From: Candidatus Lloydbacteria bacterium RIFCSPHIGHO2_02_FULL_50_18
GTDB lineage: Bacteria > Patescibacteriota > Minisyncoccia > Phycocordibacterales > UBA6899
Length of the DNA stretch: 64,000 nt
NCBI GenBank assembly: GCA_001821395.1
Contig: MHLM01000001.1
Location: 128,001 to 192,000 of the forward strand
Direction of reading: 5' to 3'
Shown: positions 15,881 to 41,430 of the stretch, one piece after another
Layout of the letters: every line of letters begins with the position of its first letter
Numbering within the stretch: the first letter of the stretch is position 1
Notes under the pieces: model-generated
The model's input: only the letters and a program-made list of their open reading frames with translations
Told to the model about the DNA's origin: nothing
Database searches by the model: none
Translations under genes and position numbers: made by a program

Positions 15881-16044
15881 TAGCAATGGTAATTACTGCG
15901 TAAGGAAGTCTGCGCAACGTGTGCCAACGTTGCATTTTCACTATTCACAACGCGAAGAAACATGATGATAGCGGTGCTCTTTTTGAAATTTATTTTTTAT
16001 CCACGATTTGCAAATTATTTTTTGGCATGATACTTATTGAAAGC

Positions 16045-18243
16045 ATGTCAGTAGCAATGAAAAACAAAACGCTGGTCATTGTCGAGTCACCGACAAAGAT
16101 CAAGAAGCTTGAAGCCTACCTTGGCGATGACTACATCGTCCTCGCTTCCGTTGGACATATTCGCGACCTCCCAAAATCCAATAAGGTCGCTATCGATATC
16201 GATGGCGGTTTTGTACCGCATTATGAAATTGTTCCGGGGAAGGACAAGGTGGTTCGCGAACTCAAGGAGGCGGCGAAGGTCGTCAAAGAAGTCCTCCTCG
16301 CAACCGACCCCGACCGCGAAGGCGAGGCTATCGCCTGGCACATCGTCGAAGTCCTCGGCCTAAAAAATGCAAAACGTATCGTATTTCATGAAATCACTGA
16401 ATCTGCAATACAAGAAGCGGTGAAACACCCCCGTCCAATCGATGAAAACCTCCGCCAGGCACAGGAAGCACGACGCATCCTTGATCGTCTCGTAGGATAT
16501 GACCTTTCGGGACTTATCTGGAAAAAAGTTCGCTATGGCCTCTCTGCGGGACGCGTGCAATCCCCGGCGCTCCGTATCATCATGGAGCGGGAACGAGAGA
16601 TCCGTGCGTTCATTCCGGAAACATTCTGGAGACTGACCGCGGACGTTGCGACCGCAAAAAAAGAACCATTCACGCTCACCTGTAGCGAGGAGCCGAGAGA
16701 CAAAGAACTTGTAGACAGGATCCTCAAAGAAGGAAAGATGAATGACTGGTATGTCCTCGAAGTGAAAGAAACCCAGGTTGCGCGCACGCCGAAGACTCCT
16801 TTTACTACCTCAACACTCCAGCAGTCCGCATCAACTCGACTCGGACTGTCCCCCTCGCGCACGATGCAGATCGCACAGAAACTTTATGAGGCCGGACTCA
16901 TCAGTTATATGCGTACCGATAGCACCAATCTCGCGCAAGAGGCGCAGAAAGAAATTCTCGCTATGATCGAAAAGACCTATGGCAAGGAAAAGGCGATGGC
17001 ACGTACCTACAAAACGAAGAGCAAGAATGCACAAGAAGCACATGAAGCAATTCGTCCCACGAGCGCATCAAAGAAAAAGGCGGGACTAACTCCAGAGCAG
17101 CAAAGTCTCTATGCCCTGATATGGGAGCGCACGATCGCATCGCAGATGATCGATGCCACCACATTGCGTACAAAAATAGTGGCGAATATAGAGGGAGCAA
17201 AGCAGCCAATTCCCGATTTTCATGCGAACGGATCGCGTATCATCGCAAAAGGATGGCTCGAAGCGGATCCCGATGCCGCTGGCGAAGAAGTCACTCTTCC
17301 AAAAGTTTCATCCGGAGATAAGCTCATACTAAAACAGCTCGACGCCCTCGAGAAGCAAACCGAACCGCTTCCCCGTTACACCGAGGCGGGTCTCATTAAG
17401 GAGCTCGACAAACGCGACATCGGTCGACCGTCGACCTATGCTTCCATCCTCCGGACCATCACCACGAGAGGTTACGTGAATAAAGAAGGCAAGACGCTCA
17501 TACCGACTGATACCGGGGATGTCGTCAGTTCATTCCTCGAACAACACTTTGCCAAATACATCAGTGACACATTCACTGCAGAGATAGAGCAAAAACTCGA
17601 TGATATCGCCCTCGGGAAACGAAAATATGCAAAGACGCTGAAAGAATTTTATGATCCATTCAAAAAAGATGTGAAATCGAAAGATAAAATTGAGAAGATT
17701 ACCAACCTTGGTGAGGCACCGATGGGACTGCTTTGTCCAAAGTGCGGCGGCAATATGATCATCAAGCTCGGCAAGAACGGCAAGTTCTTATCATGCGCAA
17801 AATTTCCGGATTGTGACGGATTGCGCGGTATCGACGGACAAGAGATCGAGGGCCCCCGTCTCACCGGAGAAAAATGCCCCGACTGCGAGAAGGGTGACCT
17901 CATCGAGCGCGAGGGTAAGTTCGGACGATTCATTGCTTGTGCAAACTATCCGAAATGCAAATACATCAAAAAAGATGCCAATCTTAACCCGGTCACCTCA
18001 AGCGGAGTCAAATGTAATATCTGCAACGAGGGCGACATGATCGAGCGACGTGGCAGATTCGGGATATTTTGGTCATGTTCGAACTATCCGAAATGCAAAC
18101 ATGCGATCAAGGCGAAACCGACGGGGAAATTATGCCCAATGTGCCAAGCACTCATGATGGAAGGTACGAAAACAATTCCCGAGAGATGTTCAAAAAAGGA
18201 GTGCCCCAACCATAACCCGCACAAGCTCAATAAACCCAAATAG
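16045..18243 (+). CDS. topA: DNA topoisomerase I with three C-terminal zinc-ribbon repeats
   Basis: TOPRIM segment (LVIVESPTKIKKLEAYLG, EGEAIAWH) and active-site region (GLISYMRTDST). Three C4 zinc ribbons (CPKCGG..C..C, CPDCEKG..C..C, CNICNEG..C..C). Start taken at MSVAMKNK. Confidence 0.85.
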   Translation: MSVAMKNKTLVIVESPTKIKKLEAYLGDDYIVLASVGHIRDLPKSNKVAIDIDGGFVPHYEIVPGKDKVVRELKEAAKVVKEVLLATDPDREGEAIAWHIVEVLGLKNAKRIVFHEITESAIQEAVKHPRPIDENLRQAQEARRILDRLVGYDLSGLIWKKVRYGLSAGRVQSPALRIIMEREREIRAFIPETFWRLTADVATAKKEPFTLTCSEEPRDKELVDRILKEGKMNDWYVLEVKETQVARTPKTPFTTSTLQQSASTRLGLSPSRTMQIAQKLYEAGLISYMRTDSTNLAQEAQKEILAMIEKTYGKEKAMARTYKTKSKNAQEAHEAIRPTSASKKKAGLTPEQQSLYALIWERTIASQMIDATTLRTKIVANIEGAKQPIPDFHANGSRIIAKGWLEADPDAAGEEVTLPKVSSGDKLILKQLDALEKQTEPLPRYTEAGLIKELDKRDIGRPSTYASILRTITTRGYVNKEGKTLIPTDTGDVVSSFLEQHFAKYISDTFTAEIEQKLDDIALGKRKYAKTLKEFYDPFKKDVKSKDKIEKITNLGEAPMGLLCPKCGGNMIIKLGKNGKFLSCAKFPDCDGLRGIDGQEIEGPRLTGEKCPDCEKGDLIEREGKFGRFIACANYPKCKYIKKDANLNPVTSSGVKCNICNEGDMIERRGRFGIFWSCSNYPKCKHAIKAKPTGKLCPMCQALMMEGTKTIPERCSKKECPNHNPHKLNKPK

Positions 18244-18375
18244 GTAGCTTGCAATCTGCATTGCAAGCGGAAAATTGTTTTTGTGAGACGGAGCATTGTT
18301 TCGCCAGCAGGCGAAACGCGAGTCGGGGTCGCGAGCGTTTTCGTTCGACGGAACGAAAACGACTTGTGACCAAAA

Positions 18376-18447
18376 ACTATTCCCGAACGATGCAGCAAGA
18401 AGGAGTGCCCGAATCATAACCCCCACAAACTGAACAAGCTCACATAA
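18376..18447 (+). repeat. duplicated copy of the last ~70 bp of topA (encodes TIPERCSKKECPNHNPHKLNKLT*), separated from the gene by a 132-bp hairpin-rich insert
   Basis: 18168-18243 (the real topA end) and 18376-18447 align nearly base for base, with mostly synonymous differences. The intervening 18244-18375 contains three strong hairpins. Confidence 0.6.
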
Positions 18448-18543
18448 CACAAATACCACCCGCTCCAGAGAGCGGGTGATTGATTCTTGCTCAACTACCT
18501 ACTTTTTCATCTGTACACAGTTGCACAAATCTGATTTTTCGTT

Positions 18544-27530: not shown

Positions 27531-27637
27531 GGCAGGATTCGAAGCCGTTCTCCCATGTTTTTGAGCGATGGCTTTGCATCGTGAAAAAATGGGCGACATT
27601 GTTTACTTGCGAACAAACCGACCCTATGGTCGGTTTT
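27531..27637 (+). repeat. tRNA-3'-end-derived repeat unit (Tyr locus, copy 2, ending in a terminator-like hairpin)
   Basis: The first 33 nt (GGCAGGATTCGAAGCCGTTCTCCCATgTTTtTGA) are nearly identical to the unit after tRNA-Lys at 40785. The unit ends with aaaccgaccctatggtcggtttt. Confidence 0.55.
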
Positions 27638-40056: not shown

Positions 40057-40118
40057 CAAAGTAAATAAATCCCTGATGGGATTTATTTACTTTGTGCCCG
40101 GGAGAAAGCAAGCTGCCT

Positions 40119-40221
40119 TGCTTTCGCGTGGGAGTCGAAGCCCGTTTCGTTATTTGCGAAGAATTCCTATTCTGAGAAAATCGAAATGGGGTGCTGACCC
40201 AGCAAAGATCGAACCTCCCAC
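40119..40221 (+). repeat. tRNA-3'-end-derived repeat unit (Leu-TAA locus)
   Basis: Starts GTGGGAGTCGAAGCCC, has internal AAGAATTCCTATTCTGAGAAAATCGAAATGGGGTGCTGACC and ends GATCGAACCTCCCAC. The ends GTGGGAG and CTCCCAC are complementary. Confidence 0.55.
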
Positions 40222-40643
40222 GTTAATAGTGTAAAATGAGTCAATGAATAAAAAGATCGTCGCATCACTGACTCTCTCAATCGTTGTTTCATTTCTGATA
40301 ATAGTTACTGTTTCGAATTATTTTGCTGAGAAAGAAATAGCGAACCAGCGCTCTGAATACACAACTCGAGGAATAGCCTTTGGCGAAACTCTTGCCCCGT
40401 AGGCATACCTTTTCCATATGCATGCATGGGGCTTTGTGTTCGTGAAACCAATATAAAAAATTTGCTTGTAGATGTGGTGATCTTTTGCATTCCCACATAC
40501 ATTCTTGTCTATGCTTTACTTGTTTTGATAGCCAAAAGAAGATCTCGAATAGGTGACGTTTCATCAAACGTAAATTAGCCCCAGTGTTCGAATCTATTGC
40601 GAATCTTCCTTGATTTGCTATGATAGCGAAGTTAGGGAAAATT

Positions 40644-40719: not shown

Positions 40720-40784
40720 TAAAAAAATCCGCGACAAGCGGATTTTTTTATGGTGCCCCCGAAGAAGTGCCCTGCGGCACTTCT

Positions 40785-40881
40785 GGCAGGATTCGAAGCC
40801 GTTCTCCCATATTTCTGAATGATTCATATCATGAGGAAATGGGAAACGGGTACTGACGCAGTAGGCGTCGAAACTCCTGCC
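40785..40881 (+). repeat. tRNA-3'-end-derived repeat unit (Lys locus)
   Basis: Starts GGCAGGATTCGAAGCCGTTCTCCCATATTTCTGAA, has internal GGGTACTGACGCAGTAGGCG and ends TCGAAACTCCTGCC. Terminal inverted repeats are about 17 nt. Confidence 0.55.
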
Positions 40882-41090
40882 GTGAGATTTCAAAAGACTG
40901 AGTATATTTCGCATGCCTGCGCATGCAGGTCTTCAAAATACGAAACCCAACATGCAGAGCTTGTCTTCGTGTCCCCAATGGCATCGGTGTGATTTCGCAC
41001 TTGCGAACAAGTCTATGAGAACCCAACTGATGTCGGTTTATTCTTCCACTTCCCTTTTATCCAAATTCCAGTACTATAGCCCTACACCCT

Positions 41091-41172: not shown

Positions 41173-41226
41173 CAAAGAAAACCGCGTAAGCGGTTTTTGT
41201 GTGCCCAGAGCGACTGAATACTACAA

Positions 41227-41333
41227 AGAGTACTTCATTTTTCTAAAGCAGAATACTGCTAAGAAAAATTGGTCGCACCACAGAGAGTACTTCATTTTTC
41301 TAGAGCAGAATACTGCTAAGAAAAATTGGTCGC
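41227..41333 (+). repeat. tandem direct repeat, 2 x 50 bp (period 57 bp), nested inside an 8-bp inverted repeat (cgactgaa / ttcagtcg)
   Basis: agagtacttcatttttcta[a/g]agcagaatactgctaagaaaaattggtcgc occurs twice with a single mismatch. Confidence 0.7.
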
Positions 41334-41347
41334 TGCTTCAGTCGCGC

Positions 41348-41430
41348 GAGAGGACTTGAAGCCGTTCTCCTGTATTTTTGAAGATTTCTTAATCTGACAG
41401 GTAGCCCAAATCTTGCACGCCAGTCTCTAC
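41348..41430 (+). repeat. tRNA-3'-end-derived repeat unit (Leu-TAG locus)
   Basis: Starts GAGAGGACTTGAAGCCGTTCTCC (shares the GAAGCCGTTCTCC core with the Lys and Tyr units) and ends GCCAGTCTCTAC. Confidence 0.5.

What the first reader, a model, noticed from the sequence alone, without database searches (positions are those of the whole stretch)
18168..18447. Duplicated topA 3' end separated by a 132-bp hairpin-rich insert: scar of integration into the gene's 3' end?
The last about 70 bp of topA (18168-18243) recur at 18376-18447. The second copy has mostly synonymous differences and still encodes ...TIPERCSKKECPNHNPHKLNKLT*.

The 132 bp between them contain three strong hairpins, the first acting as the topA terminator. 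Elements that integrate into the 3' end of a gene bring a replacement 3' end and leave the displaced original downstream.

This mirrors the tRNA-3'-end scars elsewhere in the window. It suggests the same recombination process has acted at several loci.
Basis: seen in the sequence. Interest (0 to 1): 0.5.

Follow-up and report, generated by a model that had tools for sequence, protein, structure and literature searches.

The report
Guide-bearing RNA cassette behind topA
The repeated end of the topoisomerase gene is real, and the 132 bases between the copies are one member of an apparently undescribed, widespread family of small folded RNA elements in Patescibacteria that sit behind tRNA genes and topA, each with a short sequence complementary to its insertion site.

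Summary
The last 77 nt of topA (18167-18243) recur at 18371-18447 with 77% nt identity, and the encoded peptide is the same except for its last two residues.

The spacer is not a bare scar or a set of terminators. It is one copy of a conserved structured element of about 110 nt:
- a 5' hairpin (P0);
- a 9-12-nt guide;
- a three-way-junction core that ends in GUGAC.

The second gene-end copy pairs with the guide and closes the junction.

The window holds three copies: behind topA, behind tRNA-Trp, and a degenerate one before tRNA-Leu. A covariance model finds 126 copies in 99 sources (92 metagenome loci, 6 loci of relatives, the window). Most lie just downstream of a same-strand tRNA, typically joined at T-loop position 55|56. 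Covariation is strong (92% of cells paired against 70% in shuffles). Rfam 15 and literature searches found nothing.

At topA the junction falls in the same codon in seven genomes. The states seen are filled, stacked twice, truncated remnant and empty. The topA cores belong to at least four lineages nested among tRNA-linked cores.

The guide plus two further bases is complementary to the intact gene across the junction. No recombinase is nearby.

Best reading: a retargetable, guide-directed mobile RNA cassette. The mechanism is inferred, not shown.

The parts
16057..18243 (+). topA (DNA topoisomerase I). The ORF is open from GTG at 15919; the database protein of 728 aa starts at 16057.
   Evidence: ORF list. 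100% match to the Candidatus Lloydbacteria RIFCSPHIGHO2_01_FULL_49_22 topoisomerase I, with Toprim, Topoisom_bac and Zn_ribbon_Top1 domains.
18167..18243 (+). Copy 1 (T1) of the duplicated gene end. It runs from the second base of the Thr codon in G-T-K-T-I-P-E-R-C through the stop codon TAG. This is the copy in use.
   Evidence: The junction GGN A|C(G/A)AA is the same in seven genomes.
18246..18269 (+). P0 hairpin (AGC-TTGCAAT-CTGC-ATTGCAA-GCG). This 5' module has the same AGC...GCG flanks as P2. Several other family members have it; L209 and L210 do not.
   Evidence: Read directly from the sequence. Only a weak terminator-like match at 18255-18271.
18273..18285 (+). Guide (AATTGTTTTTG, 18273-18283) plus two junction bases (TG, 18284-18285). 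It is complementary to GTA|CGAAAACAATT of the intact gene. Without the two extra bases it also pairs with the start of copy 2, forming P1.
   Evidence: Inverted repeats I10 and I18. Family-wide rule in 66 of 84 elements.
18287..18370 (+). Three-way-junction core: Px (GAC/GTC), GGA/GA internal loop, P2 (18293-18319), GGG linker, P3 (18328-18370) ending GUGAC, with an invariant G.U pair.
   Evidence: RNAalifold consensus, pair counts. Covariance-model match 18275-18382, 100.3 bits.
18371..18447 (+). Copy 2 (T2) of the topA end with its own stop codon TAA. Its first bases form the 3' strand of P1.
18457..18478 (+). G+C-rich hairpin followed by ATTGATTCTT. This is the likely real transcription end of the topA unit.
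25414..25523 (-). Second family member, downstream of tRNA-Trp (25554-25625, minus strand). The junction is at the acceptor 3' end (GCC|CGCAAAG).
   Evidence: 94.3 bits. Its core is 92% identical to the topA-linked core of L209.
21439..21546 (+). Third, degenerate family member, upstream of tRNA-Leu(caa).
   Evidence: 51.2 bits.

Best explanation
The spacer between the two topA ends is a small structured-RNA cassette of a new family, found so far in Patescibacteria.

Anatomy, 5' to 3' on the gene's strand:
- an optional hairpin, P0;
- a guide of about 9-14 nt that is the reverse complement of the host gene across the insertion point (2 nt upstream plus the first 7-12 nt of the duplicated segment);
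- a three-way junction with invariant junction nucleotides (G-N-C/G-N'-C helix, GGA/GA loop, GGG linker, P3 closing with UCGC/GUGA and a fixed G.U);
- the end ...GUGAC, directly abutting a second copy of the gene's 3' segment. That copy pairs with the guide and closes the junction (P1).

Shown:
- the family and its structure;
- its sense-strand specificity;
- its fixed position behind tRNA genes (mostly T-loop 55|56, or the acceptor 3' end) and at one codon of topA;
- the filled, stacked, truncated and empty states;
- that topA-linked cores come from several core lineages otherwise found at tRNAs.

Inferred:
- The element is mobile and retargetable.
- It selects its site by base pairing of the guide with the conserved 3' segment of a gene.
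- It is joined at the P3|P1 boundary by a strand exchange of Campbell or reverse-splicing type, possibly through a unit-length circular or tandem intermediate. The gene then keeps a complete 3' end (copy 1) and the other copy lies behind the core.

Whether the chemistry is RNA catalysis followed by copying into DNA, or a host enzyme acting on folded single strands, is unknown.
For: - Family: three copies in the window. The covariance model gave 126 matches with E<1e-8 in 99 sources.
- Structure: RNAalifold predicts the three-way junction independently, and 26 of 36 pairs show compensatory changes. 92.3% of cells are paired against 70.1% in shuffles (0 of 500 reach the observed value) and 29-40% when the partners are slid.
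- Strand: G.U pairs outnumber A.C pairs 124 to 31, so the sense strand is the one that folds.
- Context: 58 elements lie 27-117 nt downstream of a same-strand tRNA, covering 19 amino-acid specificities. In 27 of them copy 2 starts at T-loop C56 directly after GUGAC.
- Guide: it spans the junction in 66 of 84 elements. About 30 of these are not T-loop cases and involve about 10 different upstream dinucleotides.
- topA site: present in the window, L203, L005, L209 and L210; two stacked elements with three intact gene ends in L198; a truncated remnant in L208; absent in L205, L206/L207 and L211.
- Polyphyly: the nearest relatives of the topA cores are tRNA-linked cores. L209/L210 are closest to the window's tRNA-Trp element (92%/89%), against 73% (L209) to the window's own topA core.
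- Constraint: the core is 93/98 identical between the window and L203, while topA DNA is 80% identical and the DNA beyond copy 2 is unalignable.
- Tandem arrays of identical units occur in L102 and L191, and diverged ones in L186; the L102 array ends in a truncated unit.
- No associated protein gene.
Against: - No enzyme or intermediate has been identified, and no circular or excised form has been seen.
- Patescibacteria are reported to lack group II introns (PMC13011429), so a reverse transcriptase for an RNA route is not evident.
- How the guide and the gene-end copy are rewritten when a core changes target is unexplained.
- Between the window and L203 both gene-end copies have diverged about as much as the rest of topA and almost only synonymously, while the core stayed 95% identical. 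This looks like long vertical residence with a function, rather than recent mobility.
- P1 covariation could be a by-product of the guide matching copy 1 plus the duplication.
- The site search favoured sites where the two extra bases pair, which inflates that count somewhat.
Confidence: 0.5

Rival explanations
1. It is a host-serving cis-acting RNA device in the 3' trailer or UTR. The guide toggles between pairing with the real gene end (copy 1) and the decoy (copy 2). The three-way junction binds a factor or ligand, or is a processing site, and so controls maturation, stability or termination of the tRNA or topA transcript. Spread to new genes is rare and incidental.
For: - The core is strongly conserved over a divergence at which synonymous sites are near saturation.
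- It is always on the same strand as the gene and just downstream of it.
- Two mutually exclusive pairings exist for the guide.
- Between L209 and L210, whose cores are 95% identical, the second extra guide base covaries with the Gly wobble base of the gene (A-T versus G-C). This suggests the pairing with the intact gene is still under selection.
- A second core family in the window uses the same flanking design.
Against: - It does not explain why about 60 nt of copy 2 beyond the guide-paired part keep the topA reading frame and peptide.
- It does not explain three stacked gene ends, topA cores from at least four lineages, or patchy presence among close relatives, which manage without it.
- Many tRNA loci have a terminator-like hairpin with a U tract between the tRNA and the guide.
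Confidence: 0.22
2. It is an intron-like 3'-exon swap at the RNA level. The guide positions first the body|copy-1 junction and then the GUGAC|copy-2 junction in a cleaving and ligating ribozyme. Copy 1 plus the element are removed, possibly as a circle, and the gene body is joined to copy 2. Both spliced and unspliced transcripts would then encode a functional product.
For: - It would explain protein-level constraint on both copies: window copy 2 against L203 copy 2 shows 17 synonymous and 1 non-synonymous codon differences.
- The guide pairs across the body|copy-1 junction.
- The reaction point coincides exactly with the P3|P1 boundary of a junction with invariant nucleotides and a fixed G.U pair.
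- Removal from copy-1 start to copy-2 start preserves the frame whatever the spacing.
- Tandem unit arrays resemble ribozyme-processed satellite repeats.
Against: - No similarity to any ribozyme or intron in Rfam 15.
- Copy 2 in L210 carries H->L and K->T in the invariant NPHK motif.
- In several tRNA cases copy 2 is interrupted or reduced to a few nucleotides, so it could not complete a tRNA.
- Terminator-like hairpins often precede the guide.
- Copy 1 already completes the gene, so splicing is not needed.
Confidence: 0.12
3. It is the scar of a classical integrase-mediated integrative element in the 3' end of topA or tRNA. This is the first reader's idea: attL and attR remain after most of the element was deleted.
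For: - A duplicated gene 3' end with an empty site in relatives.
- The T-loop is a known crossover position for tRNA-targeting integrases (own knowledge: Williams 2002, Nucleic Acids Res).
Against: - The same ~85-nt covarying core recurs at more than 100 sites with different flanks.
- No integrase or cargo genes at any of 87 loci or in the window.
- The core is conserved far above neutral.
- An antisense guide is not a feature of att sites.
Confidence: 0.03
4. It is a chance repeat plus ordinary terminator hairpins, or an assembly artefact.
For: None beyond the presence of hairpins.
Against: - The same arrangement appears in independent assemblies from different samples.
- The z-score of the fold is -8.4.
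- The coding pattern of the repeat is non-random.
Confidence: 0.01

Closest known systems
Genomic islands and prophages that integrate into the 3' end of tRNA or tmRNA genes (tyrosine integrases; attL/attR)
   Same: The gene's 3' segment is duplicated so that the gene stays intact. The preferred junction is in the T-loop or at the acceptor end. Relatives have empty sites.
   Different: There is no integrase and no cargo. The whole insert is about 130-200 nt. It has a conserved covarying RNA fold and an antisense guide. It also targets a protein gene at a fixed codon, and the repeats can be only 77% identical.
[quoted passage not shown]
   Same: A short guide within a structured RNA pairs with the conserved host gene across the insertion point. 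Hosts are tRNA and housekeeping genes. Group I introns are frequent in Patescibacteria (PMC13011429).
   Different: The element is only about 110 nt with an unrelated fold and no Rfam match. It does not interrupt the gene but follows a complete copy of the gene end. The guide pairs mostly with the downstream side. Catalysis is not shown.
RNA- or DNA-guided insertion sequences (IS110/IS1111 bridge or seek RNA; IS200/IS605 guide-to-cleavage-site pairing)
   Same: The target is chosen by base pairing with a sequence carried by the element, so in principle it can be reprogrammed. Folded single strands are involved.
   Different: Those elements encode their recombinase, do not duplicate tens of nucleotides of target, and have different RNA architectures. 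No such protein gene is linked here.
Ribozyme-bearing repeats and retroelements (hammerhead satellite DNAs, retrozymes, the R2 HDV-like ribozyme that uses target rRNA sequence)
   Same: Small structured units are co-transcribed with a host gene. Tandem unit arrays occur. Target-gene sequence forms part of the fold.
   Different: No known ribozyme motif is present. The hosts are bacteria. No reverse transcriptase partner has been identified.
Integron gene cassettes (attC folded as single strand)
   Same: Stackable cassettes. The closing stem of the recombination structure uses bases that belong to the next unit.
   Different: attC has conserved R/L boxes and needs IntI at attI. Here the closing stem is specific to the target and no integron integrase is present.

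Membership tests
Integrative element att scar (tRNA / gene 3' end) | Direct repeat made of the duplicated 3' end of the target gene | tested here: met
Integrative element att scar (tRNA / gene 3' end) | Integrase or element genes between or next to the repeats, in this genome or in fuller copies elsewhere | tested here: not met
   The spacer is 132 bp with no ORF. No protein family is enriched near 87 loci. 30 window ORFs are all housekeeping or of unknown function.
MITE / small non-autonomous transposon | Element-specific terminal inverted repeats, a short fixed target duplication, and many near-identical copies | tested here: not met
   The inverted segments are target-derived and differ at every site. 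The duplication is 3 to about 77 nt. The window's own topA core is only about 73% identical to the L209 topA-linked core.
Intrinsic terminators only | G+C-rich hairpin followed directly by a U tract | tested here: not met
   Only a weak match within P0 at 18255-18271. P2 and P3 have no U tract. The good candidate lies after copy 2.
Diversity-generating retroelement (TR/VR) | Mismatches confined to adenines of the template repeat, with a reverse transcriptase nearby | tested here: not met
   Differences involve all four bases and are mostly synonymous. No reverse transcriptase.
Programmed stop-codon readthrough or translational bypass into copy 2 | Copy 2 in frame with copy 1 across genomes | tested here: not met
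   Spacings are 204, 196, 201, 213, 209, 178 and 183; only 4 of 7 are multiples of 3. There are in-frame stops in the window.
Any described RNA family (Rfam 15, including all self-cleaving ribozymes and group I/II introns) | Covariance-model match | tested here: not met
   Only tRNAs at gathering threshold in the window. No credible match at E<=10 on 18100-18560 (only a chance CRISPR-DR9 hit, E~0.9, on the hairpin after copy 2) nor at E<=1 on seven other element-bearing loci.
Self-cleaving or self-splicing ribozyme (functional class) | Site-specific cleavage or ligation by the RNA alone | not testable with these tools
   Only indirect hints: invariant junction nucleotides, a fixed G.U pair, and a reaction point at the helix boundary.
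New family proposed here (guide + three-way junction + gene-end copy) | Conserved secondary structure supported by covariation on the gene's strand | tested here: met
   The window copy scores 100.3 bits.
New family proposed here (guide + three-way junction + gene-end copy) | Guide complementary to the intact host gene across the junction, and copy 2 abutting GUGAC | tested here: met
   In the window, AATTGTTTTTG+TG pairs with GTA|CGAAAACAATT. Copy 2 starts at 18371, directly after GTGAC.

The most novel reading that the evidence does not exclude
The three-way junction is a new class of small cleaving and ligating ribozyme. Guided by about 10 nt of complementarity, it recombines RNA at the P3|P1 boundary. 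It would form unit-length circles from tandem or read-through transcripts, and it would swap or insert gene 3' ends. That would make it a protein-independent, reprogrammable mobile RNA cassette (a bacterial 'retroviroid-like' element), fixed in DNA by a host polymerase or reverse transcriptase.
Probability: 0.15. Interest if true: 0.95.

Novelty: categorically new. Interest (0 to 1): 0.82.

Why it matters
If the reading holds, small-genome Patescibacteria carry an abundant class of tiny structured-RNA elements with no gene of their own. A 64-kb window holds three copies of this family plus five or more of a sister family.

These elements find conserved gene ends by base pairing and can be retargeted: the same core lineage sits at tRNA-Trp in one genome and at topA in another. 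That would be a new kind of mobile element or RNA device, and possibly a new ribozyme. Its target rule (guide = reverse complement of 2 + ~10 nt of the site) is simple, easy to test and potentially programmable.

It also bears on annotation. These elements create pseudo-tRNA 3' fragments and duplicated gene ends that could be mistaken for island scars.

Tried and rejected
- Readthrough or ribosomal bypass into copy 2: rejected, because the spacing is not frame-locked and there are in-frame stops.
- DGR template/variable repeat: rejected, because the mismatches are not adenine-specific.
- MITE: rejected, because BLAST of the insert against the window gives no near-identical copies, only a 16-nt core motif.
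- Known RNA families: no credible hit in Rfam at gathering threshold or permissive E-values.
- Phage origin: the three viral-contig pattern matches look like G+C-rich chance hits without the 3' motif.
- Linked protein: all-against-all clustering of ORFs around 87 loci found nothing in more than 6 loci, and those were housekeeping. Pfam on 30 window ORFs found no recombinase or reverse transcriptase.
- Kissing interaction between the P0 loop (CUGC) and the P2 loop (AGCA): checked by eye across copies, no consistent covariation, dropped.
- Hammerhead-like reading of the junctions: the topology is similar but the conserved core nucleotides do not match.
- Literature: five full-text searches found nothing describing the element.
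- Finding an empty tRNA-Trp site in a relative: L212 instead carries the second element family there.
Full report
OBSERVATION

The repeat exists as described. Positions 18169-18242 and 18373-18446 are 77% identical without gaps and lie 204 nt apart. Both copies translate to KTIPERCSKKECPNHNPHKLNK followed by PK* or LT*.

Of 18 nucleotide differences, 14 codons differ synonymously. Only the last two codons differ in amino acid. None of 20,000 random-substitution simulations gave so few non-synonymous changes.

The spacer folds much better than shuffled sequence (z = -8.4).

The window is a housekeeping region of Candidatus Lloydbacteria bacterium RIFCSPHIGHO2_01_FULL_49_22 (Patescibacteria). 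The gene order is serS, dprA, topA, relA/spoT-like, parB.

THE SPACER BELONGS TO A FAMILY

A 16-nt stretch of the spacer recurs downstream of tRNA-Trp. Reading that region showed the same ordered motifs: GAGACGGAGC ... GCGAGUCGGGGUCGCG ... CGACGG ... UGUGACC. They are followed by a fragment of the tRNA's own 3' end. A third, degenerate copy lies before tRNA-Leu(caa).

Evidence from other sequences:
- Among 80 topA loci from reference genomes, one (L005, topA 63% identical in protein) has the element in the same place, again followed by a second topA end.
About four fifths of these are true elements.
- RNAalifold on 55 sequences predicts a three-way junction made of P1 (the closing stem), a 3-bp helix Px stacked on P2 through a GGA/GA loop, a GGG linker, and P3. 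Compensatory changes occur in 26 of 36 pairs.
- 92.3% of cells are paired, against 70.1% in column shuffles (0 of 500 reach the observed value) and 29-40% when partners are slid.
- G.U pairs outnumber A.C pairs 124 to 31, and one G.U pair is invariant. The strand of the host gene is therefore the one that folds, most simply as RNA.
- A covariance model (R1) scores the window's three copies at 100, 94 and 51 bits. It finds 126 copies at E<1e-8 in 99 sources (92 metagenome loci, 6 loci of relatives, the window).
- Rfam 15 has no credible match, even at permissive thresholds. Five full-text literature searches found no description.

ANATOMY IN THE WINDOW

- Copy 1 of the gene end: 18167-18243.
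- P0 hairpin: 18246-18269. Its AGC...GCG flanks are the same as those of P2.
- Guide AAUUGUUUUUG: 18273-18283.
- Three linker bases, then the core to GUGAC: ends at 18370.
- Copy 2: 18371-18447.
- Terminator-like hairpin: 18457-18478.

CONTEXT AND RULES

- In 58 elements a tRNA gene of the same strand ends 27-117 nt upstream. Nineteen amino-acid specificities are represented.
- In 27 of these the sequence directly after GUGAC repeats the tRNA from T-loop C56 to its 3' end. It often continues 10-25 nt into the trailer. Repeats range from 12 to 44 nt.
- In others the junction is at the acceptor 3' end, for example GCG|CAC. The window's tRNA-Trp copy is of this kind.
- The bases 5' of the core are always the reverse complement of the start of the repeated segment.
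- The next two bases are complementary to the two bases upstream of the junction in the intact gene. This holds in 66 of 84 elements, including about 30 non-T-loop cases with about 10 different dinucleotides. The search favoured such sites, so the count is somewhat generous. The sites do coincide with those defined independently by the repeat.
- The guide therefore matches the uninterrupted target across the insertion point. With copy 2 it forms P1 without those two pairs.

THE topA SITE ACROSS GENOMES

The junction is always GGN A|C(G/A)AA(A/G)AC, inside the Thr codon of the invariant G-T-K-T-I-P-E-R-C motif.

States seen:
- Filled: the window, L203 (topA 93% identical in protein), L005, L209 and L210 (81% and 79%). 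In L209 and L210 the guide starts right after the stop codon and there is no P0.
- Stacked: L198 has two elements and three intact gene ends of different natural variants (HRPDK and HNPHK types).
- Truncated remnant: L208 keeps P0, the guide and the first ~25 nt of the core, followed by unrelated DNA and no copy 2.
- Empty: L205, L206/L207 and L211.

With the closing stem excluded, the topA cores fall into at least four lineages. Each has tRNA-linked cores as nearest relatives. L209 and L210 are 92% and 89% identical to the window's tRNA-Trp element, and L209 only 73% identical to the window's topA element.

The site has therefore been colonised repeatedly, and core lineages change targets.

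Tandem arrays of identical 134- or 137-nt units occur in L102 and L191, and diverged ones in L186. The L102 array ends in a unit truncated within P2.

No protein family is enriched near the elements. The window has no recombinase, transposase or reverse transcriptase among 30 ORFs tested.

EVOLUTION OF THE TWO COPIES

Between the window and L203:
- topA DNA is 80% identical, and 321 of 703 codons differ synonymously.
- The DNA beyond copy 2 cannot be aligned.
- The core is 93/98 identical and includes one compensatory pair. The core is under strong constraint.

Copy 2 is also constrained. Window copy 2 against L203 copy 2 differs at 21 nt, giving 17 synonymous and 1 non-synonymous codon differences. 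It is therefore not a decaying scar.

A block of codons is exchanged between copy 1 and copy 2 in the two genomes. In the window, Ser is TCA in copy 1 and AGC in copy 2. In L203 it is AGT in copy 1 and TCA in copy 2. Neighbouring Glu, Lys and Pro codons follow the same pattern. This is most simply explained by recombination between the copies, as expected from excision and re-insertion at different points.

Two other observations on the copies:
- The element-free relatives L205 and L206 use TCN. The remnant L208 and L203 have AGY next to the gene. This fits an incoming replacement end in front of a displaced native end.
- In L210 the copies differ at only 4 nt, three of them non-synonymous and two in the invariant NPHK motif. 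In L005 the first 33 nt are identical. Recent conversion and neutral decay therefore also occur.

Spacing is not frame-locked: 204, 196, 201, 213, 209, 178, 183. This excludes readthrough or bypass. Why copy 2 stays coding is not settled (see notebook, 'unexplained').

MECHANISM

What is shown:
- a conserved sense-strand fold;
- a guide that spans the target junction;
- an exact boundary between the core's last helix and the repeated gene segment;
- repeated independent occupation, stacking and loss;
- absence of a linked enzyme gene.

What I infer as most likely (confidence about 0.5): the element is a retargetable cassette that recognises conserved gene ends by base pairing. It is joined at the P3|P1 boundary by a strand exchange, so that one complete gene end precedes it and another follows. 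Unit-length circles or tandem multimers are plausible intermediates.

Rivals:
- A host cis-acting RNA switch that toggles the guide between the real gene end and the decoy (0.22). It is favoured by core conservation and by one A-T to G-C covariation between the guide and the gene body in L209 and L210.
- An intron-like RNA 3'-exon swap (0.12). It would explain the coding constraint on copy 2, but it conflicts with damaged copies at some sites.
- A classical integrase scar (0.03).
- Chance (0.01).

COMPARISON AND NOVELTY

The element shares some features with known systems:
- the duplicated gene end and T-loop junction of tRNA-integrating islands;
- the junction-spanning guide of mobile introns;
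- the base-pair targeting of IS110 and IS200/IS605;
- the tandem units of ribozyme satellites;
- the stackability of integron cassettes.

It fails the defining tests of each that could be run here (see the membership table). I found no described family with this architecture. I therefore rate it categorically new as a kind of element, with the caveat that its activity is inferred from sequence only.

SCOPE

A second core family with the same flanking design occupies most other tRNA genes of the window, and in a relative it occupies tRNA-Trp. In L214 a family-1 element sits behind tRNA-Tyr, where the window has the second family. The design of antisense guide, payload and gene-end copy is therefore more general than one RNA fold.

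Noticed in passing
window 40058-40228, 40720-40888, 27349-27600, 41174-41400, 21680-21930: A second, different structured core ('core2'...GCYTTYKCG-hairpin-CGMAAWGG-GYRUACUG-hairpin-GAA...) follows tRNA-Leu(taa), tRNA-Lys, tRNA-Tyr (two copies), tRNA-Leu(tag) and tRNA-Leu(caa). Its flanks have the same design as family 1: a terminator-like hairpin, antisense of the acceptor 3' strand including CCA, an AGN-hairpin(CUGC loop)-YCG module, antisense of the T arm, the core, and then a copy of the T-arm 3' strand. No Rfam match.
   Followed up: partly
window 25377-25424 (minus strand); compare L212 3590-3675: The window's tRNA-Trp element looks chimeric. Directly after its GTGAC comes CCGCAACGAACGGTACTGCGATCGATTCCTCGTGGGCCCG, which matches the 3' part of the core2 element that follows tRNA-Trp in relative L212. 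The family-1 junction therefore seems to sit in the basal stem of an older core2 element.
   Followed up: partly
L214 1156-1284 (minus strand): In a relative, tRNA-Tyr carries a family-1 element (61 bits), whereas the window's tRNA-Tyr carries core2. Different payloads occupy the same tRNA site in different genomes.
   Followed up: no
window 21382-21407: A 26-nt copy of the 5' end of tRNA-Leu(caa) (GCTGGAGTGGCGGAATGGTAGACGCG) lies about 190 nt upstream of the real gene, just before the degenerate family-1 copy. It is a 5'-side duplication rather than the usual 3'-side one.
   Followed up: no
window 41215-41335: Two tandem ~60-nt direct repeats (...agagtacttcatttttcta[a/g]agcagaatactgctaagaaaaattggtcgc...) lie inside the flank of tRNA-Leu(tag), between its antisense-acceptor segment and the antisense T arm.
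   Followed up: no
L102 9563-9939; L191 3023-3404; L186 994-1288; L196 (five copies in 12 kb): There are tandem arrays of identical (L102, L191) or diverged (L186) units, each made of gene-end copy, hairpin, guide and core. The L102 array ends in a unit truncated within P2. Some contigs are very densely populated.
   Followed up: partly
L212 582-1379 (minus strand); also L213: A free-standing LAGLIDADG_3 ORF (265 aa) abuts tRNA-Tyr in a relative, between alr and the tRNA. It is absent from the window. No such family is enriched near the elements overall.
   Followed up: no
L206 2522-2887, L207, L198, L209 (between topA and the relA-like gene): A small minus-strand ORF of ~112-121 aa with no Pfam match lies between topA and the relA/spoT-like gene in L206, L207 and L209; L198 has an uncharacterised minus-strand coding stretch at the same place. 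It is missing in the window, so this intergenic region is rearranged often.
   Followed up: no
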